Assembly: GCA_902570265.1 (NCBI GenBank)
Contig: CACFXF010000009.1
Coordinates: forward strand, 1,231-65,230
Length of the DNA stretch: 64,000 nucleotides
Source of the DNA: an uncultured Alphaproteobacteria bacterium
GTDB lineage: Bacteria > Pseudomonadota > Alphaproteobacteria > Rhodobacterales > Rhodobacteraceae
Direction: 5' to 3'
In this document: piece by piece, positions 2,287 to 62,266 of the stretch
Layout of the letters: each line of letters begins with the position of its first letter
Position numbering within the stretch: position 1 is the stretch's first letter
Translations under genes and position numbers: made by a program
The notes under the pieces: generated by a model
Seen by the model: only the letters and a program-made list of their open reading frames with translations
What the model was told of the DNA's origin: nothing
Databases searched by the model: none

Positions 2287-2736
2287 TCAATGGTGCTTAT
2301 GAAAATCTATTTCCATTTTTTTAGTTAAAGGTACTTTATCTGCCATAAAATGACCATGATCATTTGAGTTCAAAGTTATTTCGATAATATTTTTCCCATT
2401 TTGCAACAACCTAGAAGGGATATGAAAATACGGGGAATATTGTCTAAATTTTGTACCATTAATATAGATATGAGCATGTCCTTCATTGCCATTATTTTTT
2501 CCATTAACGTTTTGGGGAGAAAATATAAAATTAGATGTATTAATTATAAGGTTAAAACCATCCATTTTATCTTCAAATAATTCAAAACTTAAAGTTGGAT
2601 AGGGTTTTTCTGCTTTTATCATTTTGTGTTTATTCTCATGTTTATGACTACTGTCATGATCATGATCATGATTTTCACTAGCATTCATAATATTAGTTAA
2701 AAAAATAAATATACTGATCAAAACCAAATTCTTCAT
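2287..2736 (-). CDS. Secreted histidine-rich putative metal-binding protein
   Basis: The likely start is the internal Met (MKNLVLISIFIFLTNIMNA signal peptide), not the ORF-track start at 2847. The mature end is ENHDHDHDSSHKHENKH, with an EGHAHIYING motif and an HKHH C-terminus. Confidence 0.55.
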   Translation of the reverse strand: MKNLVLISIFIFLTNIMNASENHDHDHDSSHKHENKHKMIKAEKPYPTLSFELFEDKMDGFNLIINTSNFIFSPQNVNGKNNGNEGHAHIYINGTKFRQYSPYFHIPSRLLQNGKNIIEITLNSNDHGHFMADKVPLTKKMEIDFHKHH

Positions 2737-2830
2737 AAACTTACCCCGTAATATCCCTAGATAATTATGACTAACTATAGATAAAAGCAGCAAATTTAAA
2801 GTTAAAAAATTATTTCTAAATACTATTGTT

Positions 2831-3295
2831 TTATTGCTCAACCTCAAAATCTAATTCAATATTACCAGCTTTTTTAAAAATAAATTTAGCCAAGTGAGGA
2901 TCCAACCATTCTAAACCTTTTTTTTCATTAAAAAAAATTAATTTAAAAGTATCCTCGTCAAAATATATTGCTTCACCACCACTAATTTCTAATCCTTCAT
3001 TTAAATCAACTTTAATATAATTCTCTGAAGCACCTTTTCTCTTCCAAATTTCAAAAGACAAAGAAAATTTTGGAATTATATTCATTAAATATTCACTATC
3101 TTCACCAATATTTTCTATTGTTAAGAACCCATAAGATCTGGAAACTTCCTGTTCAGTTTCTTTTATTAAATAAGGATGATAGATTATTAATGAACCGTGT
3201 TGTTCTTCATGAGCATTAATAGGACTTAAAAATAGGATGAAAACTAAGAACGATAAAATTTTTAATCTGTAATTTTTAAGCTTTTTCATAAACAA
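2831..3295 (-). CDS. Secreted PCu(A)C/DUF461-like protein; canonical Cu ligands not evident
   Basis: It has a signal peptide ending SPINA-HEEQHG. The pattern SLIIYHPY..GFLTIENIG..L...FEIW...IKV.L.EGLEI.GGE.I.F....FKLIFFN...AKFIFKKAGNIELDFEV follows the PCuAC beta-sandwich pattern as I remember it. The H(M)..M..HxM ligand positions are not conserved. Confidence 0.35.
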   Translation of the reverse strand: MFMKKLKNYRLKILSFLVFILFLSPINAHEEQHGSLIIYHPYLIKETEQEVSRSYGFLTIENIGEDSEYLMNIIPKFSLSFEIWKRKGASENYIKVDLNEGLEISGGEAIYFDEDTFKLIFFNEKKGLEWLDPHLAKFIFKKAGNIELDFEVEQ

Positions 3296-3835: not shown

Positions 3836-4345
3836 CTAAAAACCTTGTTCTTCAATGCATTTCACTAACTCACTTACAGATGCAGCAGACCCTTTTAAAG
3901 AGAAACTACTGATTATCTTATCATTATCATCTAAATGGAAAAGCTCTTGACCTTTTCGAATTTCTTGAATCAATTCAATCACTGCTTTATCAGATCCAGA
4001 GTTTAGATCCATTACTAACCATCCAGAATCTAGATAAGGGCTTTCTGTATTCCAACTTGCAAGATCATCAACTGCAAATTGGAATATTTTTAAGCTTTCA
4101 TTTACATCTGACTCATCATCAAAAATAGCTAATTCTTCAACTTTAGCATTAACGTAAATTTGAAATTCTTTATTACCTAAACCATTTCTTGCAATGCATG
4201 CTGTACGTCTATCATCATACCTTAAAAGTACAACTTCCCAATTTCCTTTTTTGAAAAGTACCTTTTCATCAAATACTTCAGCTGAAAAAGAAGGATAGGT
4301 AAAAAAGAGATAAAATAATAATGTACAAAACTTAAATAATTTCAT
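3836..4345 (-). CDS. Secreted hypothetical protein (weakly IalB-like)
   Basis: The start was moved to the internal Met, giving the signal peptide MKLFKFCTLLFYLFFTYPSFSA. GNWEVV...C and the C-terminal FSLKGSAASVSELVKC resemble invasion-associated-locus-B type proteins. Confidence 0.4.
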   Translation of the reverse strand: MKLFKFCTLLFYLFFTYPSFSAEVFDEKVLFKKGNWEVVLLRYDDRRTACIARNGLGNKEFQIYVNAKVEELAIFDDESDVNESLKIFQFAVDDLASWNTESPYLDSGWLVMDLNSGSDKAVIELIQEIRKGQELFHLDDNDKIISSFSLKGSAASVSELVKCIEEQGF

Positions 4346-4439
4346 TTTAAAACCCCAGTTACTAAAGCAAAAAATCAAGTATGACTTCAATATAAATAAT
4401 TGTAATAAAAAAAAGTTAAATTTTTTAAATTAAAAATTT

Positions 4440-4798
4440 CCAACCAAAAAGTGTTAGTTATATCACTTCCTTATAATAGGCTATGGTTTTTGGGGTACCT
4501 TCAAGGATATGTCTTAGGGGTGGGGGTCATAAGTGTTATGATTATTATGTTCTCACGAAAAATTGACCAACTGCCCCTTTTACTGCCCCCTTTTGCACAT
4601 TTTCCCTATATTTTTCATTTTACAGAAACCAATTTCTGGTCATATAATTTAATGAAAGCAAGTTTCAGAGATGGAGGAAACACCAATGAAATATAGTGCA
4701 AAATGCCATTGTGGTGAAATAACTGTCTAGATGGAACATGAATCCATGATGCAGTTTTTGTTTCATTGTTCTATATGCCATCAAAGAATTGGAACTTC
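4440..4798. repeat. Island repeat copy R4 (long form, about 359 bp), the left direct repeat of the adhesin block
   Basis: It is collinear with 12262-12621. After a divergent first 40 nt it is roughly 85-90% identical by eye. It includes the short-repeat core, a conserved C-rich leader and the first 37 codons of a GFA-family gene. Confidence 0.85.
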
Positions 4799-4808
4799 AT
4801 CGGAATAG
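4686..4808 (+). pseudogene. GFA/CENP-V family gene fragment (5' end only, in-frame TAG)
   Basis: It reads MKYSAKCHCGEITV*MEHESMMQFLFHCSICHQRIGTS. The TAG at 4728-4730 replaces the GAG seen in the second copy, and homology ends at 4798. Confidence 0.75.
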
Positions 4809-4901
4809 TAATCAATAGTCTCAGTAGTTATAGATATTCAATAAAATAAGGCATTATTGTTATCAGCACTCTCAGTAAAATCTTTAGCTAGCTATGGTAT
4901 T

Positions 4902-5174: not shown

Positions 5175-5993
5175 CTAGTTACCATTTTTTCCTAGGAAAG
5201 CTCCCCTTATTTCAATTGAACCAGTATCTGTATCGTCAACGGAAAAAACTCCTCCAATCTCAGCTGAATTGGGACCAAAAAATGTGCCATCAGATTCCAT
5301 CTGATATTGATTAGTCAAAGTATTAGTAATAATTCCATTTTTTAATTCTATTTTGTTAAGACAAATTCTATTTCCATTACAAATAGAACCACTTGGGAAT
5401 ATAATATCTACAGCATTAGAAATTGGACAATCCCTGCAACTTAAATTTAGCATAGACATCTTCCCAGATAGCGAAGTCAATTCACCAACCAGCTCCCCTT
5501 CTAATCCATTAAAATCAATTTGAATTTTACTGTTTCCAGTCAAGTCATATAATGCAGTCCCATCATTTATAAAAATTCTAGATGTTCCCAAGTAAGTATA
5601 ATTACCCTCAACTATGTCCCCTGAAGATTCAGGAATTCCTATAATTCCGAAAGAACCATTCAAAGTATTACCTTCAGGAATATAAGTCACAAAACTTGTA
5701 AGATCCTTGATTGGAATTCCATTCTCTACATTCTTACTAGGCGCACCATCTTTTTCATTAATAATAACCAAAGCAGATCCTTGTTTCCTTACAAATTCTC
5801 CCTCAATATTCTCTAAATCTAAGGTAGTTCCGTCAATAGTTATTAATTTTAAATTAGATACATCTAATGAATTTAAATCATACAGAGATCCCTTTTGCTC
5901 TTCCATTTTTTGTATGGATTGACCACTACATCCAGTCATAATGAAACCAAATATAATTAAAAATATTATATTAAATTCCTTGATAAGCGACAC
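5175..5993 (-). CDS. Lipoprotein with a TbpB/fHbp-type C-terminal beta-barrel (surface-lipoprotein-like)
   Basis: It has a GTG start with AAGGAG about 9 nt upstream and a lipobox FIMTGC. GNSKIQIDFNGLEGELVGEL and DGTFFGPNSAEIGGVFSV...GSIEIRGAFLGKN match the F.GP.A.E.GG.F....G.F signature of transferrin-binding-protein-like barrels. Confidence 0.55.
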   Translation of the reverse strand: MSLIKEFNIIFLIIFGFIMTGCSGQSIQKMEEQKGSLYDLNSLDVSNLKLITIDGTTLDLENIEGEFVRKQGSALVIINEKDGAPSKNVENGIPIKDLTSFVTYIPEGNTLNGSFGIIGIPESSGDIVEGNYTYLGTSRIFINDGTALYDLTGNSKIQIDFNGLEGELVGELTSLSGKMSMLNLSCRDCPISNAVDIIFPSGSICNGNRICLNKIELKNGIITNTLTNQYQMESDGTFFGPNSAEIGGVFSVDDTDTGSIEIRGAFLGKNGN

Positions 5994-6014
5994 AAATATT
6001 GCTCCTTTTATTAA

Positions 6015-9000
6015 TTAAATTAGAGTAAAGTTATCAGGTGTAAACTCCTCAACCCTAATGTCATAAATCAATACTGTACAATCTCTATCAGAAAATTCTG
6101 AATGACCGTCTGGGGTAGTTTCAATCTTAGTAAGAACTTCTTCAAATCCATTATAATTAAAAGACTTGAGGTCAATCTTATCTTTGTCAATTTCAAAGTC
6201 TCTTCCCACTGGCTCAAATGAGCTTATATTGTTAAAATTCAGATTAAATTTAGCAATAATATCGTTTCCATCAGAGGGTGAGAATATAAATAAATCTGAT
6301 CCATTTCCTCCTTCAAGCAAGTCATCTCCAGCTCCACCCTCAAGTGTATCATTTCCATAAAAATAATCCGAAAATAAAAGATCGCCAATTATATAATCAT
6401 TTTCTGAGTTACCACTTAAAGGATTATCGCCCGTACCTCCAATTAAAATATCTGCTCCAGAACCACCTTCTGCTCCACTATTTTTACCAGCAGCAACAAT
6501 GAGATCATCATATTGACTGCCTTTTATAAGTATATTACTAAATGCATCTTTGAAAACGTTCCTGATGCTCGGTGGTAAAATAGCTTGTTTTAAAGAAATA
6601 TTTAACCCTGAGCTGGAAATTACCTCCTCATTGAAACCAACTGAATCAATGAAACTTGCTTTTACTGTTAAATTCTTTCCTATATCTTCATTTTTTATTA
6701 CATAATCACGTTCAGTTGCACCTAATATCTCTACATTATTTCTAAACCATTGAAAATCTAAACTTCCATAACCATCAGGATCAATAAAATTAGGGATTGC
6801 AAGAAGGGTTTCACCAACATCTGCCCTCCCACTTATTGTAATATCTCCTTTAGCAGGAGTATTACTAGCTGCAACGTTAATAACAAATTGATCAGTTATT
6901 TGGCCGCCATTTCCATCGTTAACTGTTATTTCAAAGGTATTCAGACCAAAATTTGATCTAGATGGATTGACTGTCAAAATTGTGGAAGATCCATCAAAAT
7001 TACACCAAGAAGGTAATGCAGCACCCCCAGGAAGTGTAATGGACATAGTTAAGTTGTGATCATCTGGATCTGTGAAAAATTGGTTAAATGATAAATTTTC
7101 AGAAGTATTTTCATAAAGGTTCCAAATCGGTATTGTTTTCTTTAAAACAGGATTATCGTTCACATTAGAAATGTTTAATACAACTGCTTTTGAACCTGAT
7201 AAAGCACCTAATCCATCATCAGTAGCAATAACTGTAAAATCATATGAAGATTTAGTTTCATAATCTGCTGAAGCCTTTAATCTAACTTCTCCATCATCTG
7301 CATCAATTGTAAAATATGATGAATCAGCACCGGAAATAGAAAATGTTAGATTATCGCCTGAATCCACATCAGTCGCCGTGGCAGTATATAAAACAGAACT
7401 ATTTGCTTGGTTTTCCGCAGCAGTAACCGTTGCAGAAGAAGTTATTGAAGGCATTTCGTTTACATCATTTACACTTATCGTAACTGCTTCTGTATCACTT
7501 GATCCATCAGGATCAGTAGCGATGACATTAAAAGAGTAGGAATTTTTTGTTTCAAAATTTGCTGAAGAATTTAATCTAACTTCTCCATCATCTGAATCAA
7601 TAGCAACCAAAGAAGCATCTGTTCCAGAAACTGAGTAAGTCAAGATATCTGTAATATCTGCGTCGGAAGCAGAGACATCATATATCACAGTGTTAGTATT
7701 AGCATTTTCTTGGATACTACCAGTTAAACTAGTAGTATCAATCGTAGGACTGGACTCATTGACGTTACTAACTGTAACCGTAAGTACTTGAGTAGAAAAA
7801 ATTCCTGAACCGTCGGTAGTTGTTGCTTTTACTTCAACCTGATAGGTATTATTTCCATCTGAATCTAGTGGAACTTCAAAGTTTGGGGCGGAATTAAAGG
7901 TTAAATTACCTGATCCGTCTATACTGAACTTACTCCCATCCAAACCAGAGTTTATATCCCACGTCACTCCTACATTTGCTGAAAATGTAGTAACAGCGGT
8001 TTGATTTTCCTGCTTTGTTATTGCTGAAGTATCTGAACCTGCAGAATTACTAGGTCCAGTAATTAAGGGTGTCCTAACATTAACGGTTAAAATACCAGTA
8101 TCAGTCCCACCATTTCCATCAGATACAGTATAGTTTATTGTCTCACTAATATTCGCCGCACCAGAAGGAGGTGTATAGTTTATCGTTGTTCCATTATGAC
8201 TTACAGTACCACTTCCTCCGTAACTTATTGATTGTATAGTTAACCCATCACCATCCTCATCTGTATCATCATTAAGGACGACAATACTATTAAGTGCCGT
8301 ATTTATAGTAGTTATTCCTAGGTCATCTGTAACTTCAGGGCTATCATTTTGATCTGATATATTGATAGTAATAGCCTTACTAGTTGAGGATGGAGTACCT
8401 CCATCATCTGTTGCTATTACATTCAAACTATAAGAGTTTTTAACCTCAAAGTTTGCAGAATTATTTAATCTGATTTCCCCATCATCCGAGTCTATAGTCA
8501 CTAAGGAAGAATCCGTACCGCTAACGGAGAATGCTAATGATTGTCCAGAATCAGGGTCAGAGGCTGAAGCATCATAGGCTATGGTACCTATTGAAGCATT
8601 TTCTGCTATTGAACCGCTTGAACCTGAGGAAATTACTGGAGGGTCATTAAGATCATTAATATTTAGGGATATAGCTTGCGTATCAGAAAGATTTCCGCCA
8701 ACACCATTGTCTGTTACAGTAACGTTAAAACTATAAGAACTCTTATTCTCATAATCAGCTGAAGCTTTTAACCTAACTTCTCCGTCATCAGCATCAATTG
8801 TAAAGTGCGATGAATCAGCACCTGAAATCGAAAATGTCAAGGTGTCAGCAGTATCCAAATCTGTAGCTTCAGCATCATAAATCACAATGCTAGGGTTCTG
8901 GTTTTCATCAGCATTTACCACTGATCCAGATGTAATATTTGGGGCATCATTGATAGAAGTAAAATTAATGTCGAGGGTACCTGTCCCCGACTGTTCCGCT

Positions 9001-10556
9001 CCACTAATACCATTAATGCTGGTCCCTTTAACTGTTAAAGTTTTTGATGCTGGCGGATTATCTGAAGTGCTTTCATATTTTACCTTTCGAGCAATGTCTT
9101 GAACCATTCCATCAGTAATGGTTGTAGGAGCTGGAATACTTTCTGTTACACTCACATTATCTACATATAGTTGCGCACCTGCCCATCTACCTCCTGAAAA
9201 ATCAAAAGTTCCAGAGACAAATACAAAACGATAAGAGCCTGGATTAGTAACGGTGACAGTCTCTGTAGCCCAAGATGTTGTTGCACCTCCTGAAGAGCCC
9301 GTTTCATTTAATATTTCTACAAAGCTATTATCATCTTTATTGACGATATATCCAAAAACATCATAGGCATCGGACCCTCCTACGGCTTTCCAATCAAAGC
9401 TGACTTTATCATTTGCTCTTAAGAAAACAGTATTATCACTATAAAGTGCAGGACCTCTAACAATATCATAACCTGACTTTGCAATTATTCCAGTGCTTGT
9501 TAATCTAACAGAGTATTCTCCTCCACCATCATTATTCACTGCGGCTGAATAAGTTCCAACAGTAGTCGGAATATTTTGATCAGAAATAGCTCTTCCAATT
9601 GCTGGAGGGGTAGTGTCTGTTGGCGTATTCAAACCACCAATTTGGGTTACTCCAAAATAAATAGGGCCAGACTGTATTTGCCAGTTTCCAAAAGAGGAAG
9701 ATCCATCATTAGTTTCAAAATTTCCATTTTGAAAACTATTTGAAATATTTACCCTTAATGGATTACCATTTAATCCATTCTTAGTTGAATCAACGTTACC
9801 TAATATAGCAGCACCAGTTCCATTACCAACGTAAACAACAGATCCTATTATCGAGACCTGGCCGTTTATGGTCGAAGCTGCTCCATCATTAGAAAATCTA
9901 AGAAAGTCATGGCTATCAGAGGAAGAAAGACTAAATTCTAAATACCCCCCTGCATAATTATCACCACCAGCAGCTCCACCAGTAATTGATATGTCGCTAT
10001 CTATAACTGAAAGTGCAGCTTGTTCATTATAAGATAAGTCAGTAAGGTTGGTTATTGAGGGAGTGCCCAAAGTTCCTGGGATAGAAGAAGGATAGAGTGA
10101 AGCACTTTCAATTCTTCCAACTGTAGTTTCTAAATCCCAATCACCACCAAAGGATGGTGAGCCCGAAATATCATCTGATGCTGCAAAATCAACACCTGAA
10201 ATTCTTGAAAGAAGTTGTAAGAATTCTTCTCCTTTTCCACCACTACCAATGTCACATCCATAAAGATGGATATCTGCTTCCTTACCTAATGAATTACCTA
10301 TCGTGATTAAATCTTTGCTAAAATTTTTTGCATTATCAGTGGTTACTGAACCACTGGAAAATTTTAAAACACCTGATTCACCATGGCTAAAAATATGTAA
10401 GGAACCTAGATTACTGTCATTACCAATAATGTTAGCAATTTGACGAAGAGCATTTTGATTAGTATCTAAGATATGAACTAAATAGTGTTCAGATAACTCA
10501 TCTAATAAAGCCAAATATCCAGGCACACTTTTATCAATAAATACTACTGCCATCAT
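6015..10556 (-). CDS. Giant (1513 aa) DUF4347-cadherin-RTX repeat protein, putative T1SS-secreted adhesin
   Basis: The N-terminus (VVFIDKSVPGY...HIFSHGESG...HLYGCDIG) looks like DUF4347. At least 6 cadherin-like modules carry the ...D.D.GD.L.FS.SG.D...F.ID...G...L....D(Y/F)E....Y...V.A.D motif. The C-terminal nonapeptides are GGSGADILIGGTGDN and LEGGAGDDLLEGGNGSDLFIF (about 6280-6500). Confidence 0.85.
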   Translation of the reverse strand: MMAVVFIDKSVPGYLALLDELSEHYLVHILDTNQNALRQIANIIGNDSNLGSLHIFSHGESGVLKFSSGSVTTDNAKNFSKDLITIGNSLGKEADIHLYGCDIGSGGKGEEFLQLLSRISGVDFAASDDISGSPSFGGDWDLETTVGRIESASLYPSSIPGTLGTPSITNLTDLSYNEQAALSVIDSDISITGGAAGGDNYAGGYLEFSLSSSDSHDFLRFSNDGAASTINGQVSIIGSVVYVGNGTGAAILGNVDSTKNGLNGNPLRVNISNSFQNGNFETNDGSSSFGNWQIQSGPIYFGVTQIGGLNTPTDTTPPAIGRAISDQNIPTTVGTYSAAVNNDGGGEYSVRLTSTGIIAKSGYDIVRGPALYSDNTVFLRANDKVSFDWKAVGGSDAYDVFGYIVNKDDNSFVEILNETGSSGGATTSWATETVTVTNPGSYRFVFVSGTFDFSGGRWAGAQLYVDNVSVTESIPAPTTITDGMVQDIARKVKYESTSDNPPASKTLTVKGTSINGISGAEQSGTGTLDINFTSINDAPNITSGSVVNADENQNPSIVIYDAEATDLDTADTLTFSISGADSSHFTIDADDGEVRLKASADYENKSSYSFNVTVTDNGVGGNLSDTQAISLNINDLNDPPVISSGSSGSIAENASIGTIAYDASASDPDSGQSLAFSVSGTDSSLVTIDSDDGEIRLNNSANFEVKNSYSLNVIATDDGGTPSSTSKAITINISDQNDSPEVTDDLGITTINTALNSIVVLNDDTDEDGDGLTIQSISYGGSGTVSHNGTTINYTPPSGAANISETINYTVSDGNGGTDTGILTVNVRTPLITGPSNSAGSDTSAITKQENQTAVTTFSANVGVTWDINSGLDGSKFSIDGSGNLTFNSAPNFEVPLDSDGNNTYQVEVKATTTDGSGIFSTQVLTVTVSNVNESSPTIDTTSLTGSIQENANTNTVIYDVSASDADITDILTYSVSGTDASLVAIDSDDGEVRLNSSANFETKNSYSFNVIATDPDGSSDTEAVTISVNDVNEMPSITSSATVTAAENQANSSVLYTATATDVDSGDNLTFSISGADSSYFTIDADDGEVRLKASADYETKSSYDFTVIATDDGLGALSGSKAVVLNISNVNDNPVLKKTIPIWNLYENTSENLSFNQFFTDPDDHNLTMSITLPGGAALPSWCNFDGSSTILTVNPSRSNFGLNTFEITVNDGNGGQITDQFVINVAASNTPAKGDITISGRADVGETLLAIPNFIDPDGYGSLDFQWFRNNVEILGATERDYVIKNEDIGKNLTVKASFIDSVGFNEEVISSSGLNISLKQAILPPSIRNVFKDAFSNILIKGSQYDDLIVAAGKNSGAEGGSGADILIGGTGDNPLSGNSENDYIIGDLLFSDYFYGNDTLEGGAGDDLLEGGNGSDLFIFSPSDGNDIIAKFNLNFNNISSFEPVGRDFEIDKDKIDLKSFNYNGFEEVLTKIETTPDGHSEFSDRDCTVLIYDIRVEEFTPDNFTLI

Positions 10557-10847
10557 TATATTTTACATGAATATAATCTATAATCCAAATTTTCTCTTCT
10601 ATTAAGAAACGACTATTGTAAATTCGTATATCTAATTTATAGATAGTACATTTTTTTATAGGTGTTAATAGAAATTGGTAGTCAACAGTCTTAGCCACAA
10701 TATGCTCGTTACTATTGTTGATATAAATAGTTTTGCTTATTATTTGTGAATTAAAGTATTTTCAAAAATATCTTTTTAAGTAATTCAAAATTATAAATAT
10801 AAATATTATTCTTTATTTTTTTATTTATTTCATACATTTTATTTTCT

Positions 10848-11885
10848 ATGAAAAAGTTGGGGTTTTTAAATATAATATTTATAACATACTTTTTTTTACA
10901 TACTCCCTTAGTATACGGATCAGAAAGGTTAGAATTATATTTTCTTACTGAAAAATTATTAAATACAAAAATATTAAATACAAACGAATTTATACAATTT
11001 AGTTTAAATTCAAAATCTTTAGGCTTTAAATACTTAAAGGATAATAACAAAAAAAAATCTATATTTTTAATTAATAGAGCCTTTTATCCAATAATTACCT
11101 ATTCAGATAATATCAACGGAGGTAACCTATTCCAAACAATTCAGTTAGGTGAACTAACGTTTGAGGGTGAAGAGGAGGCCAAAGCAAAATCAGGTTTATT
11201 AATTGGTGGTGGTATCTTCTTAGATATCAAAAAACAATATGGGATAGGGAGATATCTTGATTTAAGAATGAATGCCTCATTATCTGCGGCACCCACTCAT
11301 GATTGGTTAAGCATTAGAGACAAATCCATAATTGCTTGTTCAAAAAATCATCTAAAAGAATGGTTTTTTTTTGATGCCTGTGCACATTGGGGACATAATA
11401 AAAGACAATATATAGATGAAATTAATAAAAATCTTTCAGTTTCATTAACAAGATTATTTATAACTAAAAAAGTCTTTAACGAAAGTATTTTTACAATAAA
11501 TAGACATATTTCTGATAAATATCATCAAATGCAAGGAATATTTGCATTAAATTCATTATTACCTAATGGTTACAAAACAAATTTCTCTATTACACTTGGT
11601 GAACCAATTAAAGAATTAATTTCATTAAATTACTCATTAAGTCTAGCTGTAAGCAAATATATAAAGAGAAAACCGTTGAGGCTTTCATTAAAGCAAACTC
11701 ATTATGATGGTGGAAAATTCCTTGGAATAGATAGGGAAGATACTACCCAACAAATATCTGTTTCATATCCCATCAATAACAGATTTAATATTGCTTTGGG
11801 ATATACTAGAAATAAATCTTCCATTAGTTCTTTTAGCCATAACGGACCCCACATAGAGTTTTCATTTCCTTTACGAAGTTTTTAA
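10848..11885 (+). CDS. Outer-membrane beta-barrel protein, 345 aa (possible minimal Slam/DUF560-like barrel)
   Basis: The signal peptide is MKKLGFLNIIFITYFFLHTPLVYG. It shows alternating hydrophobic strands and the C-terminal ...HIEFSFPLRSF with a terminal Phe. YSDNINGGN and the REDT...NKSSISSFSH tail are reminiscent of DUF560, recalled from memory only. Confidence 0.5.
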   Translation: MKKLGFLNIIFITYFFLHTPLVYGSERLELYFLTEKLLNTKILNTNEFIQFSLNSKSLGFKYLKDNNKKKSIFLINRAFYPIITYSDNINGGNLFQTIQLGELTFEGEEEAKAKSGLLIGGGIFLDIKKQYGIGRYLDLRMNASLSAAPTHDWLSIRDKSIIACSKNHLKEWFFFDACAHWGHNKRQYIDEINKNLSVSLTRLFITKKVFNESIFTINRHISDKYHQMQGIFALNSLLPNGYKTNFSITLGEPIKELISLNYSLSLAVSKYIKRKPLRLSLKQTHYDGGKFLGIDREDTTQQISVSYPINNRFNIALGYTRNKSSISSFSHNGPHIEFSFPLRSF

Positions 11886-17479: not shown

Positions 17480-17485
17480 TGTGAT

Positions 17486-17518
17486 GTTCCTTAGGTGTAT
17501 TTGATGCACCTAAGGAAC
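17486..17518 (-). promoter_or_regulatory. Perfect 12-bp stem / 9-nt loop hairpin between the TRAP receptor and permease genes
   Basis: GTTCCTTAGGTG (17486-17497) and CACCTAAGGAAC (17507-17518) are exact reverse complements. The stem contains the AAGGA upstream of the permease start. Confidence 0.6.
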
Positions 17519-17530
17519 TAATAAATCATT

Positions 17531-48046: not shown

Positions 48047-48853
48047 CTATCCTTTATTTAATACCTTTAATTCAGTCTCTCCGCAAAATAGTTTCCCTTT
48101 TGAATAAATGAACTTAATAAGGCCAAGCCCTTTATTGTTTAAAGAAGAAGTTATACTACCTACTGGTTTACCATTTTCATTGGTTATTTGGCTATTTAAT
48201 TCTAATACTTGGGTTGCACTTTGCAATATCACTAATCCATTTTTTAAAGCTGTTTTGTGTCTCATTCTAGCAGTAACTTCTTGACCAACAAAACATCCTT
48301 TAGTGAAACTTACTCCATTTATTTTATCAAAACCGGTTTCAAGTATATAAGTATCACCACTTTTTAGTTCGTACCCACATTTGGGAATACATAAATCAAT
48401 CCTTTTTTTTTCATATTCTTTAAAGAAATTTTCCTCATCTTCTAAATCATGGTTAATTAAATTCCTAAGGACAATTTTTCTCCAACCTAGTTTTTTGTTT
48501 CTTGGATCGTTAAAACTACCTTTAATACTTTCACCAAAACCAAGAATAATTGATGACTCAATTTCTTCAAATGAAACATTAGATCTTAATTTATATAAAT
48601 TTAATTTATCCAAAAATCCTTTATAGTTTTCCAAATTGATATCTATAAAAAAATTTTCTTCATCTAAACCAGCAATAAAAAAATCAAATAAATATTTTCC
48701 CTGAGGTGTAAGTAATGCAGAATATATTAATGATGAGATTGATTCCTCAATATTATTAGTTATTATCCCTTGCAGAAATTTTTTTGCATCTGTACCAGAA
48801 ACTTTTACTAACTTTCTCGATTTGTCTAAAAATTGTCCTCTTTCAAGATTCAA
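48047..48853 (-). CDS. ygfZ: YgfZ-type folate-binding protein (GcvT-like)
   Basis: It is 268 aa with GTDAKKFLQGIITNNI and the KGCFVGQE motif. Confidence 0.75.
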   Translation of the reverse strand: MNLERGQFLDKSRKLVKVSGTDAKKFLQGIITNNIEESISSLIYSALLTPQGKYLFDFFIAGLDEENFFIDINLENYKGFLDKLNLYKLRSNVSFEEIESSIILGFGESIKGSFNDPRNKKLGWRKIVLRNLINHDLEDEENFFKEYEKKRIDLCIPKCGYELKSGDTYILETGFDKINGVSFTKGCFVGQEVTARMRHKTALKNGLVILQSATQVLELNSQITNENGKPVGSITSSLNNKGLGLIKFIYSKGKLFCGETELKVLNKG

Positions 48854-50646
48854 TTAACTTTACCCTCTATTTGTTGTAAATTATATAAATCATAATATAG
48901 TTTTTTATTATTTATTAAATTTTTGTGAATACCTTCCTCTACTACTTTACCTTTATCAATAACTACTATTTTATTCGCATTTTTTATATTTGATATTTTG
49001 TGTGATATGTAGATCGTTGTCTTTTTTAAAGATGCTTTTTTAAAAGCCTTTTGTAACAACTCTTCTGATTTTGAGTCTAAAGCAGTGGTAGGTTCATCAA
49101 GCAACAATATAGGACAATTTCTAACTAATGCTCTTGCAATATTTACTCTTTGTCTTTGCCCACCTGATAAGTTAGATCCTCTAGGTCCTACTTTTGTGTA
49201 AAGTTTTTTAGGCATATTATCTGAAAATTCTTTTACATAAGAAATATCACAGGCATTTAGGATCTCTGTTTTTGTAGCATCTAATTTACCAATTTTAATA
49301 TTCTCATATATAGTTTCATCAAATAGCTGATTTTCTTGTATTATGATTGAGATATTGGATCTGAGTTCATTTGGTTCAATACAAGAAATATCAACTCCAT
49401 CAATAAAAATTTTACCTCTAGTTGGAATTAAAATTCCTGTTATAAGTTTTAAAATAGAACTTTTTCCTGCACCTGATTTTCCAACTAAAGCAACTAACTG
49501 ACCTGAAGGTATTGAAAAAGTAATATCATCTAATATTTTTTTATTTCCCTTGATTAATGATACATTTTCAAAATTAATATCACCCAGAAAGTTTATTTTT
49601 TTATTTATATATTTTAAACCATTAGTTGCCGGTAATGGACTTTGCACCATGAATAGTTCATGTACTTTATCTGCACTTGCAAGCATAACTTGAAAATTAC
49701 CAGCTACATTACTTAATCTACGTAGTGGCTCAAAAATTAAGGCCATTGCAGTAAAAAAAGCCATAAAATCACCAATAGATTTTTCGCCAGAAACAATCTG
49801 TGCTCCACCAAAAATCATTACACCTAAAAAACCGATCCCTGCAATAAAATCAATTAACGCAGGTGTTGAAGCAACTCCACCCTCAATTTTTAATTTAATC
49901 TTTCTAACTTTTTCTAATAACTTTTTAAAAGAATTAAGTCTATATGTTTGAAGTGAGTATAATTTTAAAATTGATATACCATGAAAAATTTCATCTAAAG
50001 AGATACTTAAATCTGCCTCAATATTTCTATTTTCTCCAGATATTTTACGGATCCATTTTTGCAATAAAAAAATTGGGATTACGAGTATAGGAGCACCAAT
50101 AAAAGCAATAACAGTCCATTTCCAATCTACATATAATGCAACGGTTATTAACGAAACGAGGGCAATACCATCCTTCACTAAAGTCATAAATATTGAACCA
50201 GCAGAACTTGTAATTAATCTTGTATCAACCCTCATTCTTTCAATCAATACACCAGGTGAAGTTTTATCATAAAAAGGAAGACCCAAATTAATTAATTTCT
50301 CTAAAAGCTTTTGCTGTAATGATTTTTCAACTTTTTGTCCTACCCAAGTTACAATTAATCGTTGGATAAGACCGGCACATGATCTAAGAAAAAAAATTAA
50401 AAATATAATAAAACCCACTGAAATTAAAGCAGATTGATTGCTTGGGATAAAAACTTTGTCAAACATAGATTTTATAGAATAGGAAAGTAATCCCAACATA
50501 CTTCCTTCAAGACTCATAAAAAATATCCCGATAACTAATATTGGCCAATATTTTTTGAAATAATTAGTCCAATACCACTTTATGACTAAATAAGGATCCT
50601 CTTTTAACTTTTTTGAAGTTTTTTTTAATTTACCACTTGGCATCAA
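48850..50646 (-). CDS. ABC exporter, fused permease/ATPase (MsbA-like)
   Basis: It has a 6-TM N-terminal half. Walker A is GKSGAGKSS and the signature is LSGGQRQR. No C39/CLD domain is present and there is no adjacent MFP gene. Confidence 0.8.
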   Translation of the reverse strand: MMPSGKLKKTSKKLKEDPYLVIKWYWTNYFKKYWPILVIGIFFMSLEGSMLGLLSYSIKSMFDKVFIPSNQSALISVGFIIFLIFFLRSCAGLIQRLIVTWVGQKVEKSLQQKLLEKLINLGLPFYDKTSPGVLIERMRVDTRLITSSAGSIFMTLVKDGIALVSLITVALYVDWKWTVIAFIGAPILVIPIFLLQKWIRKISGENRNIEADLSISLDEIFHGISILKLYSLQTYRLNSFKKLLEKVRKIKLKIEGGVASTPALIDFIAGIGFLGVMIFGGAQIVSGEKSIGDFMAFFTAMALIFEPLRRLSNVAGNFQVMLASADKVHELFMVQSPLPATNGLKYINKKINFLGDINFENVSLIKGNKKILDDITFSIPSGQLVALVGKSGAGKSSILKLITGILIPTRGKIFIDGVDISCIEPNELRSNISIIIQENQLFDETIYENIKIGKLDATKTEILNACDISYVKEFSDNMPKKLYTKVGPRGSNLSGGQRQRVNIARALVRNCPILLLDEPTTALDSKSEELLQKAFKKASLKKTTIYISHKISNIKNANKIVVIDKGKVVEEGIHKNLINNKKLYYDLYNLQQIEGKVN

Positions 50647-56928: not shown

Positions 56929-58233
56929 TTAGTTTATTTTTGGAACTGACATATTTAATTTTTTTAAATTAAGTTCACCAGTAGCAGCTAATAAAGAAAA
57001 CCTTGCATATGTATGTTCCCTTTCAGCAGAAGCAAGCTGAGTTCTGGCATCTAAAAGACTTTGCTCTGCGTTAATTACATCAAGAGTAGTTCTAGTGCCT
57101 AATTTTTCTTCAACTACAACACCATCATATGCTAAACTTGAGGCTTCTACTTGTTGTTTTCTAGCCTCTATACTTGCTTTTGAAACCAAGACATTTGACC
57201 AAGCTAAGGCGATTTCTTGTTCAACTAATCTCTTTACCAATAATGTACTTTCCTTTTGTGCTTTATAATTTATTTTAGCTTGATTAATTTCACTATCAAT
57301 TCTTCCTGAATTAAATATTGGTATAGAGCCTTCTAATCTAAATGTTACTGAATTGCTATTTCCCGATGAGCTATTATAACCATTTGAAAAAATTGACTTG
57401 AAACTAATTAAAGGAGATTTTTGACTTTTAGCAATGTCAATTCTAATTCTAGCAATTTGTTCTTCAATTTTAGCAGCTATAATTTTTGTATGGGTTTTTA
57501 ATGAATTTTGTTTGGCAATTTCTAAAGACGAAGGTAATTTAAAATTGGTTTTAATATTCATTAATTTATAAGGCTTAATTCCCACTAAACTTAAAAACAA
57601 TTCACTACTAATTTTAAGTGAACCAACTTTTGCTGTAAGATTAGCTTTTGCAGCAGCTAGTGCAGATTCAGCTTGAGAAACATCAGTTCTAGTAACTTCT
57701 CCTAGTTGAAATCGATCTCTTATTTCAAGAAACTGTCGCTCAAGAACTGCAACATTGTTATTACTTAACTCAACAAATTTTTGGTCACGCAAAACATTTA
57801 AATAAGAATTAATAGTATCTAATAATACTTTTTGTTCTAATTCATGCAATTGCAATTTTGCAATTTTATATAAAGATTCATCTATAAGAACTTTACTTTT
57901 GGACAAATTTCCATCTGATATATTGTAACTACCAGTTAAAGAACTTGAGTAACTATCACTTTTTGAAGTTTCATTAATATTCCAACCTCTAGATCCATTA
58001 ATTGATGCTGAAAAATTTAATCCTAATGCAGACTTCGAAATATCAATCGCAGTTTTAGAAGATTGCAGTTGAGTTCTTGATAATAAAAGCTGTTTATTAG
58101 TTGAAAAAGTTAATCTTAAAACTTCATCTAATGTATCAGCGTTCAAATATGGACTTAAGGCCAAAAAACACCATAACATTATTAGCCATATTTTAAATAA
58201 ATTTAATTTTATTTTTTTCAACACATCTATCAT
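56929..58233 (-). CDS. tolC: TolC-family outer membrane efflux protein
   Basis: It is 434 aa with a signal peptide. It has two internally repeated coiled-coil/beta halves and many Q/A/L heptads typical of TolC. Confidence 0.85.
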   Translation of the reverse strand: MIDVLKKIKLNLFKIWLIMLWCFLALSPYLNADTLDEVLRLTFSTNKQLLLSRTQLQSSKTAIDISKSALGLNFSASINGSRGWNINETSKSDSYSSSLTGSYNISDGNLSKSKVLIDESLYKIAKLQLHELEQKVLLDTINSYLNVLRDQKFVELSNNNVAVLERQFLEIRDRFQLGEVTRTDVSQAESALAAAKANLTAKVGSLKISSELFLSLVGIKPYKLMNIKTNFKLPSSLEIAKQNSLKTHTKIIAAKIEEQIARIRIDIAKSQKSPLISFKSIFSNGYNSSSGNSNSVTFRLEGSIPIFNSGRIDSEINQAKINYKAQKESTLLVKRLVEQEIALAWSNVLVSKASIEARKQQVEASSLAYDGVVVEEKLGTRTTLDVINAEQSLLDARTQLASAEREHTYARFSLLAATGELNLKKLNMSVPKIN

Positions 58234-62262: not shown

Positions 62263-62266
62263 ATTT

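What the first reader, a model, noticed from the sequence alone, without database searches (positions are those of the whole stretch)
5175..11885. Candidate new surface module: giant DUF4347-cadherin-RTX protein, TbpB-like lipoprotein and a small divergent OM barrel, with no T1SS genes
The 1513-aa protein has a type-1-secretion-style C-terminus (GGxGxD nonapeptides). It is followed 21 bp later by a lipoprotein (lipobox FIMTGC). The lipoprotein's C-terminus, DGTFFGPNSAEIGGVFSV..GSIEIRGAFLGKN, is the signature I associate with the 8-stranded barrel of TbpB/fHbp-type, Slam-dependent surface lipoproteins. Divergently transcribed, 290 bp upstream, is a 345-aa signal-peptide protein with OM beta-barrel features and a terminal Phe. 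It is about the size of a Slam/DUF560 barrel without the periplasmic TPR domain. No ABC/MFP secretion genes are adjacent. The only ABC exporter in the window (48850-50646) is MsbA-like and 38 kb away, and tolC is 46 kb away. My hypothesis is that the barrel is a minimal Slam-like translocon displaying the lipoprotein, which works together with the giant adhesin as an anchor, receptor or co-adhesin. I know of no description of such a trio, least of all in a streamlined planktonic genome and carried on an integrase-marked island.
Basis: inference. Interest (0 to 1): 0.78.

Follow-up and report, generated by a model that had tools for sequence, protein, structure and literature searches.

The report
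Minimal Slam-like barrel with lipoprotein and adhesin
A small outer-membrane barrel in this low-GC marine genome is probably a stripped-down, database-invisible relative of the Slam (type 11) lipoprotein exporter; beside it is a TbpB-type lipoprotein that always travels with a giant cadherin-RTX adhesin, which hints at a surface-display module not yet described in ocean bacteria.

Summary
The 272-aa lipoprotein (5175-5993, -) has a lipobox and a C-terminal TbpB/Slam-cargo-type domain. Support is Pfam TbpB_B_D just above threshold and a two-step profile-profile chain to genuine Slam cargo. The 1513-aa protein is a DUF4347-cadherin-RTX adhesin with no Sec signal.

The 345-aa protein matches no Pfam or NCBIfam model. 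It belongs to a large family: at least 383 clusters at 50% identity, almost all about 350 aa. Every related locus recovered is marine or from marine Alphaproteobacteria. AlphaFold2 (pLDDT 92) gives two N-terminal helices and a 14-stranded barrel. A profile-profile comparison with 11 genuine DUF560/Slam proteins aligns the whole barrel (88%, 276 columns), and invariant residues coincide. A FadL-family control gave 3%.

In 93 other loci, 15 of 21 barrel clusters with enough flank have a TbpB-type lipoprotein next door. It usually lies directly upstream on the same strand, as in canonical Slam loci.

The window's lipoprotein family follows the giant adhesin gene in 7 of 7 contexts. The barrel is adjacent only in the window and one close relative.

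Verdict: a probable TPR-less mini-Slam with its cargo, plus an adhesin-lipoprotein partnership of unknown mechanism. No integrase was found. I rate it a new variant of a known kind.

The parts
10848..11885 (+). 345-aa outer-membrane protein, the candidate TPR-less 'mini-Slam' (T11SS-like translocon)
   Evidence: The ORF is. It matches no Pfam or NCBIfam model. The family has at least 383 clusters at 50% identity. The AF2 model has pLDDT 92.2 and pTM 0.86. hhalign against DUF560 gives 87.9%, E 3.3e-6, over 276 columns.
10848..10919 (+). Sec signal peptide of the barrel protein (aa 1-24, ...LVYG|SERL)
   Evidence: Read directly from the sequence. This stretch has low pLDDT in the model. The family alignment begins to be conserved at SERLELY.
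10923..11018 (+). Two periplasmic helices (aa 26-40 and 45-57) carrying the conserved ERLxxY motif. They occupy the place of the roughly 180-aa TPR domain of Slam.
   Evidence: DSSP on the AF2 model. hhalign places helix 45-57 opposite the last helix before the Slam barrel, Slam residues 178-198.
11064..11882 (+). 14-stranded beta-barrel (aa 73-345) with a terminal Phe
   Evidence: There are 14 long strands: 73-86, 116-132, 135-148, 154-168, 173-185, 190-206, 209-221, 226-237, 243-251, 259-272, 275-291, 294-308, 314-324 and 331-339. Foldseek against the PDB finds only generic porins and 14-strand barrels, at TM no higher than 0.42 among the 50 matches listed.
11109..11126 (+). NINGGN motif (aa 88-93) just after strand 1. 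It aligns with the invariant NxN motif of DUF560.
   Evidence: In the family, N90 and G92 are invariant and N88 is nearly invariant. In DUF560, N210 and N212 are invariant. hhalign aligns the two motifs.
10557..10847 (.). 291-nt AT-rich divergent intergenic region between the adhesin operon and the barrel gene
   Evidence: Sequence. Promoter-like sites are no more frequent than in shuffled sequence. There is no Fur box. Only weak AT-rich palindromes are present.
6015..10556 (-). 1513-aa DUF4347-cadherin-Big_9-He_PIG-RTX protein, a probable T1SS-secreted Ca2+-dependent adhesin
   Evidence: Pfam. PDB cadherin matches reach E 5e-42. There is no N-terminal signal peptide, read directly. Full-length orthologues of 57-61% identity occur in L032, L033 and L036.
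10098..10547 (-). N-terminal DUF4347 domain (aa 4-153) with conserved HIFSHG and LYGC(D/N) motifs
   Evidence: Pfam gives 145 bits. No solved relative is detectable by sequence.
6237..6404 (-). RTX nonapeptide block (about aa 1385-1440, 5-6 GGxGxD repeats), followed by the C-terminal secretion-signal-like tail
   Evidence: HemolysinCabind scores 25.2 bits against a cut-off of 23, in 2 stretches. The repeats can be read directly.
5175..5993 (-). 272-aa lipoprotein, a TbpB/Slam-cargo-type candidate surface lipoprotein, co-transcribed with the adhesin
   Evidence: ORF. TbpB_B_D scores 26.7 against a cut-off of 26. slam_lipo scores 33 bits. The family alignment shows invariant C22 and G24. It lies directly downstream of the adhesin gene in 7 of 7 contexts.
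5928..5993 (-). Lipoprotein signal peptide and lipobox (aa 1-22, IMTG|C)
   Evidence: Read directly. The Cys is invariant across 21 homologues.
5178..5660 (-). C-terminal TbpBBD-type domain (aa 112-272), the presumed recognition domain for the translocon
   Evidence: hhalign of A2 against the lipoproteins beside barrel homologues gives 90.4% over 128 columns. Those lipoproteins against genuine Slam cargo give 86.1% over 123 columns. Reversed controls give 2.4% and 0.5%. TbpB is the top PDB hit, but weak at E 0.039.
5361..5438 (-). Cys-rich insertion in the barrel domain (C186, C189, C205, C211; CxxC...Cx5C), specific to this lipoprotein family
   Evidence: All four Cys are invariant in 21 homologues. 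The insertion is absent from the other TbpBBD lipoproteins.
56929..58233 (-). TolC-family outer-membrane factor, a possible OM component for type 1 secretion of the adhesin (not linked)
   Evidence: Pfam OEP, 176 bits.
48850..50646 (-). ABC exporter (MsbA-like architecture) without an adjacent HlyD-type partner; probably not the adhesin's dedicated T1SS ABC
   Evidence: Pfam ABC_membrane plus ABC_tran. The neighbouring ORF 50665-51336 matches phosphatase families, not HlyD. The other neighbour, 48047-48853, was read by eye only.

Best explanation
The 345-aa protein is a very divergent, TPR-less relative of the DUF560 barrel of Slam/type 11 secretion outer-membrane proteins. Its family acts as an outer-membrane translocon for lipoproteins whose C-terminal TbpB-type 8-stranded barrel domain is the recognition signal.

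Proposed pathway for the window's 272-aa lipoprotein:
1. It is exported by Sec.
2. It is lipidated at Cys22.
3. It is carried to the outer membrane by Lol.
4. It is moved to the cell surface through, or along, the 14-stranded barrel.

The lipoprotein is co-transcribed with the giant DUF4347-cadherin-RTX protein and always encoded with it. That protein has no Sec signal and leaves the cell by a type 1 system encoded elsewhere. On the surface the two proteins most likely act together. My preferred guess is that the lipoprotein tethers or receives the adhesin, for instance through its N-terminal DUF4347 domain, the last part to emerge from a T1SS.

Shown: the gene anatomy, the 14-strand model, the profile-level similarity to DUF560, the recurrent pairing of barrel and lipoprotein, and the strict pairing of adhesin and lipoprotein.

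Inferred: translocation itself, surface exposure, and any physical contact between adhesin and lipoprotein.
For: 1. Fold. AF2 with a 136-sequence alignment gives pLDDT 92.2 and pTM 0.86. The model has a signal peptide, two helices and 14 long strands. The C-terminus ends in Phe, as an OMP beta-signal does.

2. Homology.
- hhalign of the family profile (A3) against 11 genuine DUF560 proteins (A6) gives 87.9%, E 3.3e-6, score 53.3. It aligns 276 collinear columns covering the last pre-barrel helix and the whole barrel.
- Reversed profiles score 19-20. Twenty block shuffles score 16.5-34.9 over at most 71 columns.
- The N-terminal and C-terminal thirds of the Slam barrel each find the collinear place on their own, at 44.6% and 49.8%.
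- Random 7-sequence subsamples of A6 give 47-88%, always over 249-275 columns. A FadL-family profile, another 14-strand barrel, gives only 3.0% and score 26.2.
- Conserved residues coincide: invariant N90 and nearly invariant N88 in the new family with invariant N210 and N212 in DUF560; and S324, nearly invariant in the 136-sequence alignment and invariant in the 30-sequence one, with invariant S476 in DUF560.

3. Context.
- In 93 loci from genomes and marine metagenomes, 27 of 40 barrel genes with at least 800 nt on both sides have an adjacent ORF matching a TbpBBD-lipoprotein HMM. After clustering at 80% identity this is 15 of 21 clusters.
- 50 of the 60 HMM hits among 725 ORFs are adjacent to the barrel.
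- The commonest arrangement is lipoprotein directly upstream on the same strand, 33 of 50.
- That is the arrangement seen in the 10 reference DUF560 loci in which an upstream cargo gene was identified.
- Of the 14 neighbours scanned, 7 hit TbpB_B_D and 7 hit slam_lipo.

4. Cargo. The window lipoprotein has a lipobox, TbpB_B_D above the gathering score, and a 90%/86% hhalign chain to genuine Slam cargo.

5. A missing TPR domain is compatible with function. NilB tolerates deletion of its whole periplasmic N-terminal domain (PMC8406197).

6. Adhesin-lipoprotein operon. The same arrangement, with the two genes from 1 nt of overlap to 31 nt apart, occurs in the window, L031, L032, L033, L034, L035 and L036. 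It persists at 57-61% adhesin identity and 48-52% lipoprotein identity.
Against: - Neither the window protein nor any convincing member of its family hits Pfam SlipAM/DUF560. Only 1 of 136 does, at E 0.088, whereas 14 of 136 weakly hit the generic Porin_4 model. No NCBIfam model hits.
- hhalign at 88% is suggestive, not decisive. DUF560 against FadL reached 55% with score 43 over 124 columns, so cross-family barrel matches of moderate size do occur.
- The middle third of the barrel does not align on its own.
- No structural comparison with a Slam model was possible. Foldseek turned up no Slam structure in the PDB copy, and no AlphaFold DB library was available.
- Several of the closest low-GC relatives of the window's barrel have no adjacent lipoprotein (L006, L009, L040, L042, L045, L048).
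- The adhesin-lipoprotein pair occurs without an adjacent barrel in L032, where flanks are long, and apparently in L033. So it is not shown that this barrel serves this particular lipoprotein.
- The lipoprotein's direct profile match to hemophilin-type Slam cargo covers only the last strands (8%).
- Nothing tests contact between adhesin and lipoprotein.
Confidence: 0.6

Rival explanations
1. The barrel is a substrate channel, not a translocon. The surface or periplasmic TbpB-type lipoprotein captures a ligand such as a metal, haem or small molecule and hands it to the 14-stranded barrel for passive uptake. This would be a two-gene mini-receptor, analogous to TbpB/TbpA but without TonB.
For: - TbpBBD lipoproteins in known systems bind ligands and are encoded next to their receptor. 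The reference loci L021, L023 and L025 carry a TonB-dependent receptor as well as Slam.
- No TonB-dependent receptor was recognised among the neighbours read by eye in the new family's loci, so the barrel could fill that role.
- 14-strand barrels such as FadL, OmpG and CymA are channels, and they are the nearest PDB folds.
- 14 of 136 family members weakly hit Porin_4.
- The window lipoprotein has an invariant 4-Cys insertion that could bind a metal.
Against: - The family profile aligns with DUF560 (88%, 276 columns) and not with FadL (3%).
- The conserved NxN and C-terminal Ser motifs are those of DUF560.
- Genuine DUF560 proteins are themselves labelled 'porin family protein' in RefSeq annotation, so weak porin hits do not discriminate.
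- The same-strand arrangement of lipoprotein then barrel is the canonical Slam arrangement.
Confidence: 0.15
2. In this window the adjacency of barrel and adhesin operon is incidental. The barrel is a Slam-like or other outer-membrane protein serving different cargo or none. The adhesin-lipoprotein operon merely landed beside it in a variable genome region, and the lipoprotein reaches the surface, or stays in the periplasm, by another route.
For: - The adhesin-lipoprotein pair occurs without a nearby barrel in L032, which has 5.4 kb upstream and 10 kb downstream. L033 has only about 0.5 kb upstream of the adhesin, and L036 begins inside the adhesin gene, so they say less.
- Close relatives of the barrel stand alone (L006, L009, L040, L045).
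- The trio is seen only in the window and in the closely related L031.
- The barrel gene is divergently transcribed, not in the operon.
Against: - Neisseria Slam1 also serves unlinked cargo, and many Slam homologues have no adjacent lipoprotein ('classification 0' in PMC5449769, supplement 3). Lack of adjacency is therefore normal for this kind of system.
- The lipoprotein carries the right kind of C-terminal domain.
- No canonical DUF560 gene was seen among the roughly 30 window ORFs scanned with Pfam. The rest of the genome is unknown.
Confidence: 0.15
3. The lipoprotein faces the periplasm and is an accessory of the adhesin's type 1 secretion or retention, comparable in role to the LapG/LapD control of LapA. 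The barrel is unrelated to it.
For: - The coupling between adhesin and lipoprotein is strict.
- RTX adhesins are known to need dedicated retention and release factors (established knowledge of LapA-type adhesins).
- DUF4347 carries conserved His and Cys motifs that might be a processing site or a protease-like dyad.
Against: - All characterised proteins with a TbpBBD C-terminal domain are surface-exposed or secreted T11SS cargo (PMC8406197, PMC12282271).
- The lipoprotein shows no similarity to LapG/LapD-type proteins in Pfam or NCBIfam.
Confidence: 0.07

Closest known systems
Slam / type 11 secretion system outer-membrane proteins (DUF560, Pfam PF04575 'SlipAM'; e.g. Neisseria Slam1/2, Xenorhabdus NilB and HrpB, Acinetobacter HsmA)
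   Same: - Both have a 14-stranded outer-membrane barrel of about 275-300 residues.
- The profiles align collinearly over the whole barrel, with shared NxN and C-terminal Ser motifs.
- The gene usually sits directly next to a lipoprotein with a TbpB-type C-terminal barrel domain, most often lipoprotein first on the same strand.
- The system appears to need a single outer-membrane component.
   Different: - It has no periplasmic TPR domain, only two helices of about 32 aa in place of 140-180 aa.
- It is about 350 aa instead of 450-510 aa.
- It is not recognised by PF04575 or any NCBIfam model.
- It has its own conserved Cys pair (C164/C178) and an ERLxxY motif.
- Every related locus recovered is from marine metagenomes or marine Alphaproteobacteria, including very low-GC streamlined genomes.
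- No experiment exists on any member.
Marine 'cluster 3' T11SS OMPs of Rhodobacteraceae/Roseobacteraceae (Microb Genom 2025, PMC12282271)
   Same: Same host families (Rhodobacteraceae), same marine habitat, and the same kind of system.
   Different: - Cluster 3 proteins are PF04575-positive. They rarely sit next to TbpBBD cargo (8 of 145 loci) and co-occur instead with DUF1194.
- The family described here is PF04575-negative and sits next to TbpBBD lipoproteins in about 70% of well-flanked clusters.
- It may therefore be a partner for some of the TbpBBD lipoproteins of marine Alphaproteobacteria that are not encoded beside a cluster 3 OMP. This is my inference.
TbpB / fHbp / HpuA / hemophilin-type Slam-dependent surface lipoproteins (Pfam TbpB_B_D, FHBP_C; NCBIfam slam_lipo)
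   Same: Lipobox, an N-terminal variable 'handle' domain, and a C-terminal barrel domain with the G.F.G..A.E.GG.F...G.F.G.K ending.
   Different: - It reaches the Pfam cut-off only marginally, and only over the C-terminal half of the model.
- It falls far below the slam_lipo cut-off.
- It carries a roughly 45-aa insertion with four invariant Cys in the barrel domain.
- It is never next to a TonB-dependent receptor and always follows a giant RTX adhesin gene.
LapA/MpIBP-type giant RTX adhesins secreted by T1SS
   Same: A very large repetitive Ca2+-binding protein with cadherin or Ig-like repeats, C-terminal RTX nonapeptides and no Sec signal.
   Different: - The N-terminus is a DUF4347 domain of unknown function. 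Whether it acts like the LapA retention module was not tested.
- No adjacent ABC/MFP/TolC or LapG/LapD genes are present.
- It has a dedicated downstream TbpB-type lipoprotein gene. I found no description of such a pairing in the literature searched.

Membership tests
DUF560 / Slam / T11SS outer-membrane protein | Match to Pfam PF04575 (SlipAM) at or above the gathering score | tested here: not met
   The window protein has no hit at E<=1. Only 1 of 136 family members hits, at E 0.088. A local HMM built from 11 DUF560 proteins found no family member at E<=1e-3.
DUF560 / Slam / T11SS outer-membrane protein | Detectable homology to DUF560 barrels by profile-profile comparison | tested here: inconclusive
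   hhalign gives 87.9%, E 3.3e-6, over 276 collinear columns. Reversed, shuffled, split and subsampled controls, and a FadL control at 3%, are favourable. However, DUF560 against FadL reached 55%, so the margin is moderate.
DUF560 / Slam / T11SS outer-membrane protein | 14-stranded outer-membrane beta-barrel | tested here: met
   The AF2 model has pLDDT 92.2 and 14 long strands. The 14-strand topology of DUF560 is taken from PMC8406197 and PMC13230968.
DUF560 / Slam / T11SS outer-membrane protein | N-terminal periplasmic TPR domain (about 140-180 aa) | tested here: not met
   Only two helices, aa 26-57, precede the barrel. None of the 136 aligned members or the 8 longer members shows a convincing TPR hit.
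DUF560 / Slam / T11SS outer-membrane protein | Encoded next to cargo with a C-terminal TbpBBD/lipoprotein-C 8-strand barrel domain | tested here: met
   15 of 21 well-flanked clusters have such a neighbour, and 50 of 60 HMM hits are adjacent to the barrel. Of the 14 neighbours scanned, 7 hit TbpB_B_D and 7 hit slam_lipo. In the window itself the cargo candidate is 4.9 kb away, on the far side of the adhesin gene.
DUF560 / Slam / T11SS outer-membrane protein | Required for surface display or secretion of the cargo | not testable with these tools
   This needs genetics or reconstitution.
Slam-dependent surface lipoprotein (TbpB_B_D / slam_lipo) | Lipoprotein signal peptide with lipobox Cys | tested here: met
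   The lipobox is IMTG|C22. C22 and G24 are invariant in 21 homologues.
Slam-dependent surface lipoprotein (TbpB_B_D / slam_lipo) | Pfam TbpB_B_D at or above the gathering score | tested here: met
   26.7 bits against a cut-off of 26, covering aa 211-266 and profile positions 61-122 of 126. The margin is small.
Slam-dependent surface lipoprotein (TbpB_B_D / slam_lipo) | NCBIfam NF041636 slam_lipo at or above its cut-off of 80 bits | tested here: not met
   33.2 bits.
Slam-dependent surface lipoprotein (TbpB_B_D / slam_lipo) | Complete 8-stranded C-terminal barrel domain | tested here: inconclusive
   The hhalign chain A2 to neighbours of barrel homologues (90.4%, 128 columns), then to genuine cargo (86.1%, 123 columns), covers the whole domain. 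The direct comparison gives only 8% over 21 columns.
T1SS RTX adhesin | Ca2+-binding GGxGxD nonapeptide repeats near the C-terminus and no N-terminal Sec signal | tested here: met
   HemolysinCabind scores 25.2 bits against a cut-off of 23. Five to six repeats and a non-signal N-terminus can be read.
T1SS RTX adhesin | Linked ABC transporter, HlyD-type MFP and TolC genes | tested here: not met
   None is adjacent. There is an unpaired ABC exporter 38 kb away and an OEP/TolC gene 46 kb away.

The most novel reading that the evidence does not exclude
A large family of about 350-aa 'mini-Slam' barrels, covered by no Pfam or NCBIfam model, is a main surface-lipoprotein translocon of marine Alphaproteobacteria, including SAR11-like genomes. 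In this lineage it displays a dedicated lipoprotein that serves as the outer-membrane anchor or receptor for a giant T1SS cadherin-RTX adhesin. That would be a hand-off between two secretion systems that has not been described.
Probability: 0.3. Interest if true: 0.8.

Novelty: new variant of a known kind. Interest (0 to 1): 0.66.

Why it matters
- **Scope of T11SS surveys.** Type 11 secretion has been mapped only through the Pfam DUF560 model. A TPR-less family that the model misses would mean current surveys undercount the system. At least 383 clusters at 50% identity were found here.
- **An open puzzle.** A 2025 study found that the DUF560 proteins of marine Rhodobacteraceae rarely sit beside TbpB-type cargo (PMC12282271). 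This family may be a partner for some of the TbpB-type lipoproteins of those bacteria.
- **Mechanism.** A working translocon without the TPR domain would define the minimal functional unit. That would help mechanistic and structural work on how lipoproteins cross the outer membrane.
- **Ecology.** It would place a surface-display system and a large adhesin in streamlined planktonic bacteria, which are usually thought of as non-adhesive. This bears on particle, phage or grazer interactions.
- **Testability.** Two cultured carriers exist, Rhodobacteraceae HTCC2083 and Tranquillimonas alkanivorans DSM 19547, so the hypothesis can be tested directly.

Tried and rejected
- **Shallow-alignment model.** AF2 with only the 20 close homologues gave pLDDT 52 and meaningless Foldseek hits. 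It was replaced by the 136-sequence alignment.
- **Foldseek on the good model.** The PDB search gave only generic porins and 14-strand barrels at TM no higher than 0.42, and no Slam structure turned up. No structural membership test was therefore possible.
- **HMM-versus-sequence searches.** Pfam, NCBIfam, a PDB profile search and a local DUF560 HMM found no link to DUF560.
- **Fetching a Slam sequence from published peptides.** A chimeric query built from epitope peptides in the literature returned only two C-terminal fragments. These fragments did lead, through tblastn on PLSDB, to full-length DUF560 genes.
- **Single-sequence hhalign.** It was too insensitive in both directions.
- **Direct cargo comparison.** The window lipoprotein family against hemophilin-type cargo gave only 8%. 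An intermediate profile was needed.
- **Longer family members.** They were checked for a hidden TPR domain and none was found.
- **Regulatory signals.** The Fur box, promoter, terminator and inverted-repeat scans of the divergent intergenic region found nothing above chance.
- **Integrase.** A search of the window found none.
- **DUF4347.** A PDB sequence search with the domain found nothing informative.
- **Rejected: the adhesin as T11SS cargo.** It has no Sec signal and no TbpBBD domain.
- **Rejected: the barrel as a generic Porin_4 porin.** The weak Porin_4 hits occur in 14 of 136 members. Genuine DUF560 proteins are also annotated 'porin family protein'.

Full report
**Observation.** The window is about 30% GC throughout. 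The three ORFs are exactly as described:
- a 272-aa ORF at 5175-5993 (-) with ...FIMTGC at Cys22;
- a 1513-aa ORF at 6015-10556 (-), ending 21 nt upstream of it;
- a divergent 345-aa ORF at 10848-11885 (+), beyond a 291-nt intergenic region.

Pfam finds DUF4347, four or more cadherin domains, Big_9, He_PIG and a weak but above-threshold HemolysinCabind match in the giant protein. In the lipoprotein, TbpB_B_D scores 26.7 bits against a cut-off of 26. NCBIfam's 'Slam-dependent surface lipoprotein' model scores 33 bits, below its cut-off of 80. The 345-aa protein matches nothing in Pfam or NCBIfam.

The context claims are right. An ABC exporter lies at 48850-50646. Its neighbour 50665-51336 matches phosphatase families rather than HlyD. 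An OEP/TolC gene lies at 56929-58233. No secretion genes are adjacent. I found no integrase.

**The barrel family.** A word-indexed search found only metagenomic homologues of at least 50% identity. A profile search of 1.84 billion cluster representatives found 383 clusters at E<=1e-3. Of these, 298 are at E<=1e-10. Almost all are 330-365 aa, with a signal peptide and a terminal aromatic residue.

A 136-sequence alignment has a mean identity of 24%. N90, G92, C164 and C178 are invariant. The motifs ERLxxY, NINGGN and CSxNH...D.C are conserved.

I scanned all 136 members. Pfam gave only weak generic hits: Porin_4 in 14, and SlipAM/DUF560 in one at E 0.088. NCBIfam gave nothing consistent. The family therefore has no model in either library.

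**Structure.** AF2 with 20 close homologues failed (pLDDT 52). With the 136-sequence alignment it gave pLDDT 92.2 and pTM 0.86. The model has a signal peptide, two helices (aa 26-40 and 45-57), 14 long beta strands, and a small hairpin after NINGGN. Foldseek against the PDB returned only generic porins and the 14-strand barrels CymA and OmpG, at TM no higher than 0.42 among the 50 matches listed. No Slam structure turned up there, and no AlphaFold DB library was available.

**Test of homology to DUF560.** I had no DUF560 sequence to start from. I recovered a C-terminal Slam fragment using peptides printed in PMC13230968. I then used tblastn on PLSDB, which holds two Neisseria gonorrhoeae chromosomes filed as plasmids and many plasmid-borne 'surface lipoprotein assembly modifier' genes. 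This gave eleven full-length DUF560 proteins from Neisseria, E. coli/Klebsiella plasmids, Novosphingobium, Acinetobacter, Vibrio, Pseudoalteromonas, Erwinia and Proteus, which I aligned.

hhalign of the new family against this alignment gave 87.9% probability, E 3.3e-6 and score 53.3. It aligned 276 collinear columns, running from the last helix before the Slam barrel to the final strand.

Controls:
- Reversed profiles scored 19-20. Twenty block shuffles scored 16.5-34.9 over at most 71 columns.
- Slam residues 199-300 and 390-496 each found the collinear region independently, at 44.6% and 49.8%. The middle third did not.
- Random 7-sequence subsamples of the DUF560 alignment gave 47-88%, always over 249-275 columns.
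- A 9-sequence FadL-family profile, another 14-strand barrel, gave 3.0% with score 26.2.
- One caution: DUF560 against FadL gave 55% with score 43 over 124 columns. Cross-family barrel matches of moderate size do occur.

Conserved residues coincide. N88 (nearly invariant) and N90 (invariant) align with the invariant N210 and N212 of DUF560. S324 aligns with the invariant S476.

I read this as probable remote homology. The family lacks the TPR domain and fails the family's own HMM.

**Genomic context of the barrel.** Two contigs found by exact-protein look-up, 12 genome loci and 80 marine metagenome loci were examined. I called the ORFs myself.

In Rhodobacteraceae HTCC2083, Tranquillimonas alkanivorans, a Cognatiyoonia MAG and others, a lipoprotein gene ends a few bases before the barrel gene, or overlaps it, on the same strand. 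In low-GC contigs it is convergent or divergent. Of 14 such neighbours, 7 hit TbpB_B_D, 3 hit FHBP_C and 7 hit slam_lipo.

I built an HMM from the first set of neighbours and ran it over all 725 ORFs of 93 loci. It found 60 hits, 50 of them within 400 nt of a barrel gene.
- Among barrel genes with at least 800 nt on both sides, 27 of 40 had such a neighbour.
- After clustering at 80% identity, 15 of 21 clusters had one.
- The arrangements were upstream same strand 33, downstream same strand 7, convergent 5 and divergent 5.

Some loci without a hit have abutting upstream genes with TbpB-like C-termini that the HMM missed (L050, L057, L116). The rate is therefore an undercount.

Ten of the eleven reference DUF560 loci show an identified TbpB-type cargo gene directly upstream on the same strand. 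The E. coli plasmid locus L021 does not; it has IS26 upstream.

Several close low-GC relatives of the window's barrel have no adjacent lipoprotein (L006, L009, L040, L042, L045, L048). That is also common for genuine Slam homologues (PMC5449769 supplement).

**The lipoprotein.** Its family (29 clusters) has an invariant lipobox Cys and four invariant Cys in an insertion. Its profile aligns with the lipoproteins beside barrel homologues at 90.4% over 128 columns (aa 112-271). Those in turn align with eight genuine Slam cargo proteins at 86.1% over 123 columns. Reversed controls gave 2.4% and 0.5%. The direct comparison with hemophilin-type cargo matched only the last strands (8%). TbpB is the top but weak PDB sequence hit.

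**The adhesin link.** Every context recovered for this lipoprotein family has the giant gene immediately upstream:
- the window;
- L031, a frameshifted long-read contig that also carries the divergent barrel;
- L032 and L033, both records from NCBI assemblies (GCA_902586855.1 and GCA_902603185.1);
- L034, which holds a C-terminal fragment of the adhesin;
- L035, which holds a contig-end remnant;
- L036.

The adhesin is collinear at 57-61% identity, and the lipoprotein at 48-52%. In L032 no barrel lies within 5.4 kb upstream or 10 kb downstream. L033 has only about 0.5 kb upstream of the adhesin.

The module therefore consists of two overlapping pairs rather than a fixed trio.

The adhesin has no Sec signal and ends in RTX repeats with a typical tail. 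It is a T1SS substrate and not T11SS cargo.

**Mechanism proposed.**
1. [quoted passage not shown]
2. The mini-Slam recognises its C-terminal barrel domain and moves it to the surface.
3. The adhesin is secreted C-terminus first by an unlinked T1SS.
4. The two meet on the surface, where the lipoprotein may hold the adhesin, perhaps through DUF4347.

The first two steps are inferred by analogy with Slam (PMC9090332). Steps 3 and 4 rest only on the strict gene coupling. The missing TPR domain is compatible with function, because NilB tolerates deletion of its whole N-terminal domain (PMC8406197).

**Comparison with what is known, and novelty.** T11SS/Slam is known, and so is its pairing with TbpBBD cargo. 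The literature searches found no description of a TPR-less, PF04575-negative family, of T11SS in SAR11-like genomes, or of a TbpB-type lipoprotein dedicated to an RTX adhesin. DUF4347 is uncharacterised.

A 2025 study found that marine cluster 3 DUF560 proteins of Rhodobacteraceae rarely neighbour TbpBBD cargo, in 8 of 145 loci (PMC12282271). The family described here, from the same bacterial families, usually does.

I classify the finding as a new variant of a known kind. Confidence in the Slam-like reading is about 0.6. Confidence in the anchoring role is lower.

Noticed in passing
window 10098-10547 (-), adhesin aa 4-153; also L032:5415-5924 and L033:506-1015: The DUF4347 domain has two strictly conserved motifs, HIFSHG and (I)HLYGC(D/N). 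From memory, these resemble the His-Gly / Cys catalytic dyad of clan CD (caspase/CHAT-like) peptidases. If that is real, the adhesin could process itself or be processed at its N-terminus.
   Followed up: partly
window 5361-5438 (-), lipoprotein aa 186-211: A Cys-rich insertion (CxxC...Cx5C, all four Cys invariant in 21 homologues) sits inside the TbpB-type barrel domain. It is absent from all other TbpBBD lipoproteins examined. It could be a metal site or two disulfides.
   Followed up: partly
window 2287-2847 (-) and 2831-3295 (-): Two overlapping small genes with signal-peptide-like N-termini and no Pfam match. One is very His-rich (ENHDHDHDSSHKHENKH ... HKHH), which suggests periplasmic metal binding. 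In L002, a second barrel-family locus lies near CopC/CopD/multicopper oxidase genes.
   Followed up: no
window 3836-4390 (-); L045:146-661; L009 region: A 184-aa signal-peptide protein with no Pfam hit has a clear homologue a few kb from the barrel gene in L045. The barrel's neighbourhood is therefore partly syntenic across low-GC relatives, and the adhesin-lipoprotein operon looks like an insertion or deletion within it.
   Followed up: partly
L007:2104-3514 and 6041-6625; L050:2492-3058; L057:2156-2722: In the higher-GC (Rhodobacteraceae-type) loci the lipoprotein-barrel cassette lies right next to tyrosine- or serine-recombinase-like genes. The cassette may move on islands there, although no integrase was found in the window itself.
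   Followed up: partly
L002:2647-3823, 5494-6339, 1583-2593, 4293-4889: One metagenomic contig carries two barrel paralogues, one of them disrupted, and two TbpBBD-type proteins. L008 carries two cargo-like genes flanking one barrel. Multi-cargo loci therefore exist, as with canonical Slam.
   Followed up: partly
L028:1-2240 (Acinetobacter lwoffii plasmid pAVAci94): The gene directly upstream of a canonical Slam gene encodes a protein of about 1270 aa annotated as 'factor H binding protein domain-containing'. Very large proteins can apparently be T11SS cargo when they carry the C-terminal barrel domain.
   Followed up: no
PLSDB records NZ_CP119142.1, NZ_CP119140.1, NZ_OL790811.1, NZ_CP104448.1 and others: Several complete chromosomes (N. 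gonorrhoeae 2.17 Mb, Proteus mirabilis 4.08 Mb, A. baumannii 4.09 Mb) are filed as plasmids in the plasmid collection, mostly without annotation. They were useful here as a source of reference genes but are a trap for plasmid statistics.
   Followed up: no
window 18630-19262 (+), 15695-18481 (-), 59521-63436 (+): A DMSP_lyase family (cupin-type) gene, a TRAP transporter pair (NMT1_3 + DctM) that is also next to the barrel in L001/L003/L005/L040, and a DUF1800/DUF1501 pair. These are consistent with a SAR11-like marine alphaproteobacterium.
   Followed up: partly
A3/A4 alignments, N-terminal region (e.g. P0061, P0073, P0079): Many higher-GC family members have a Cys right after the signal peptide and another in the ERLxxYC motif, a likely disulfide stapling the N-terminal helices. 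At least one (P0079, ...VFAGC) has a lipobox-like sequence. The low-GC subfamily that includes the window protein has lost both Cys.
   Followed up: no
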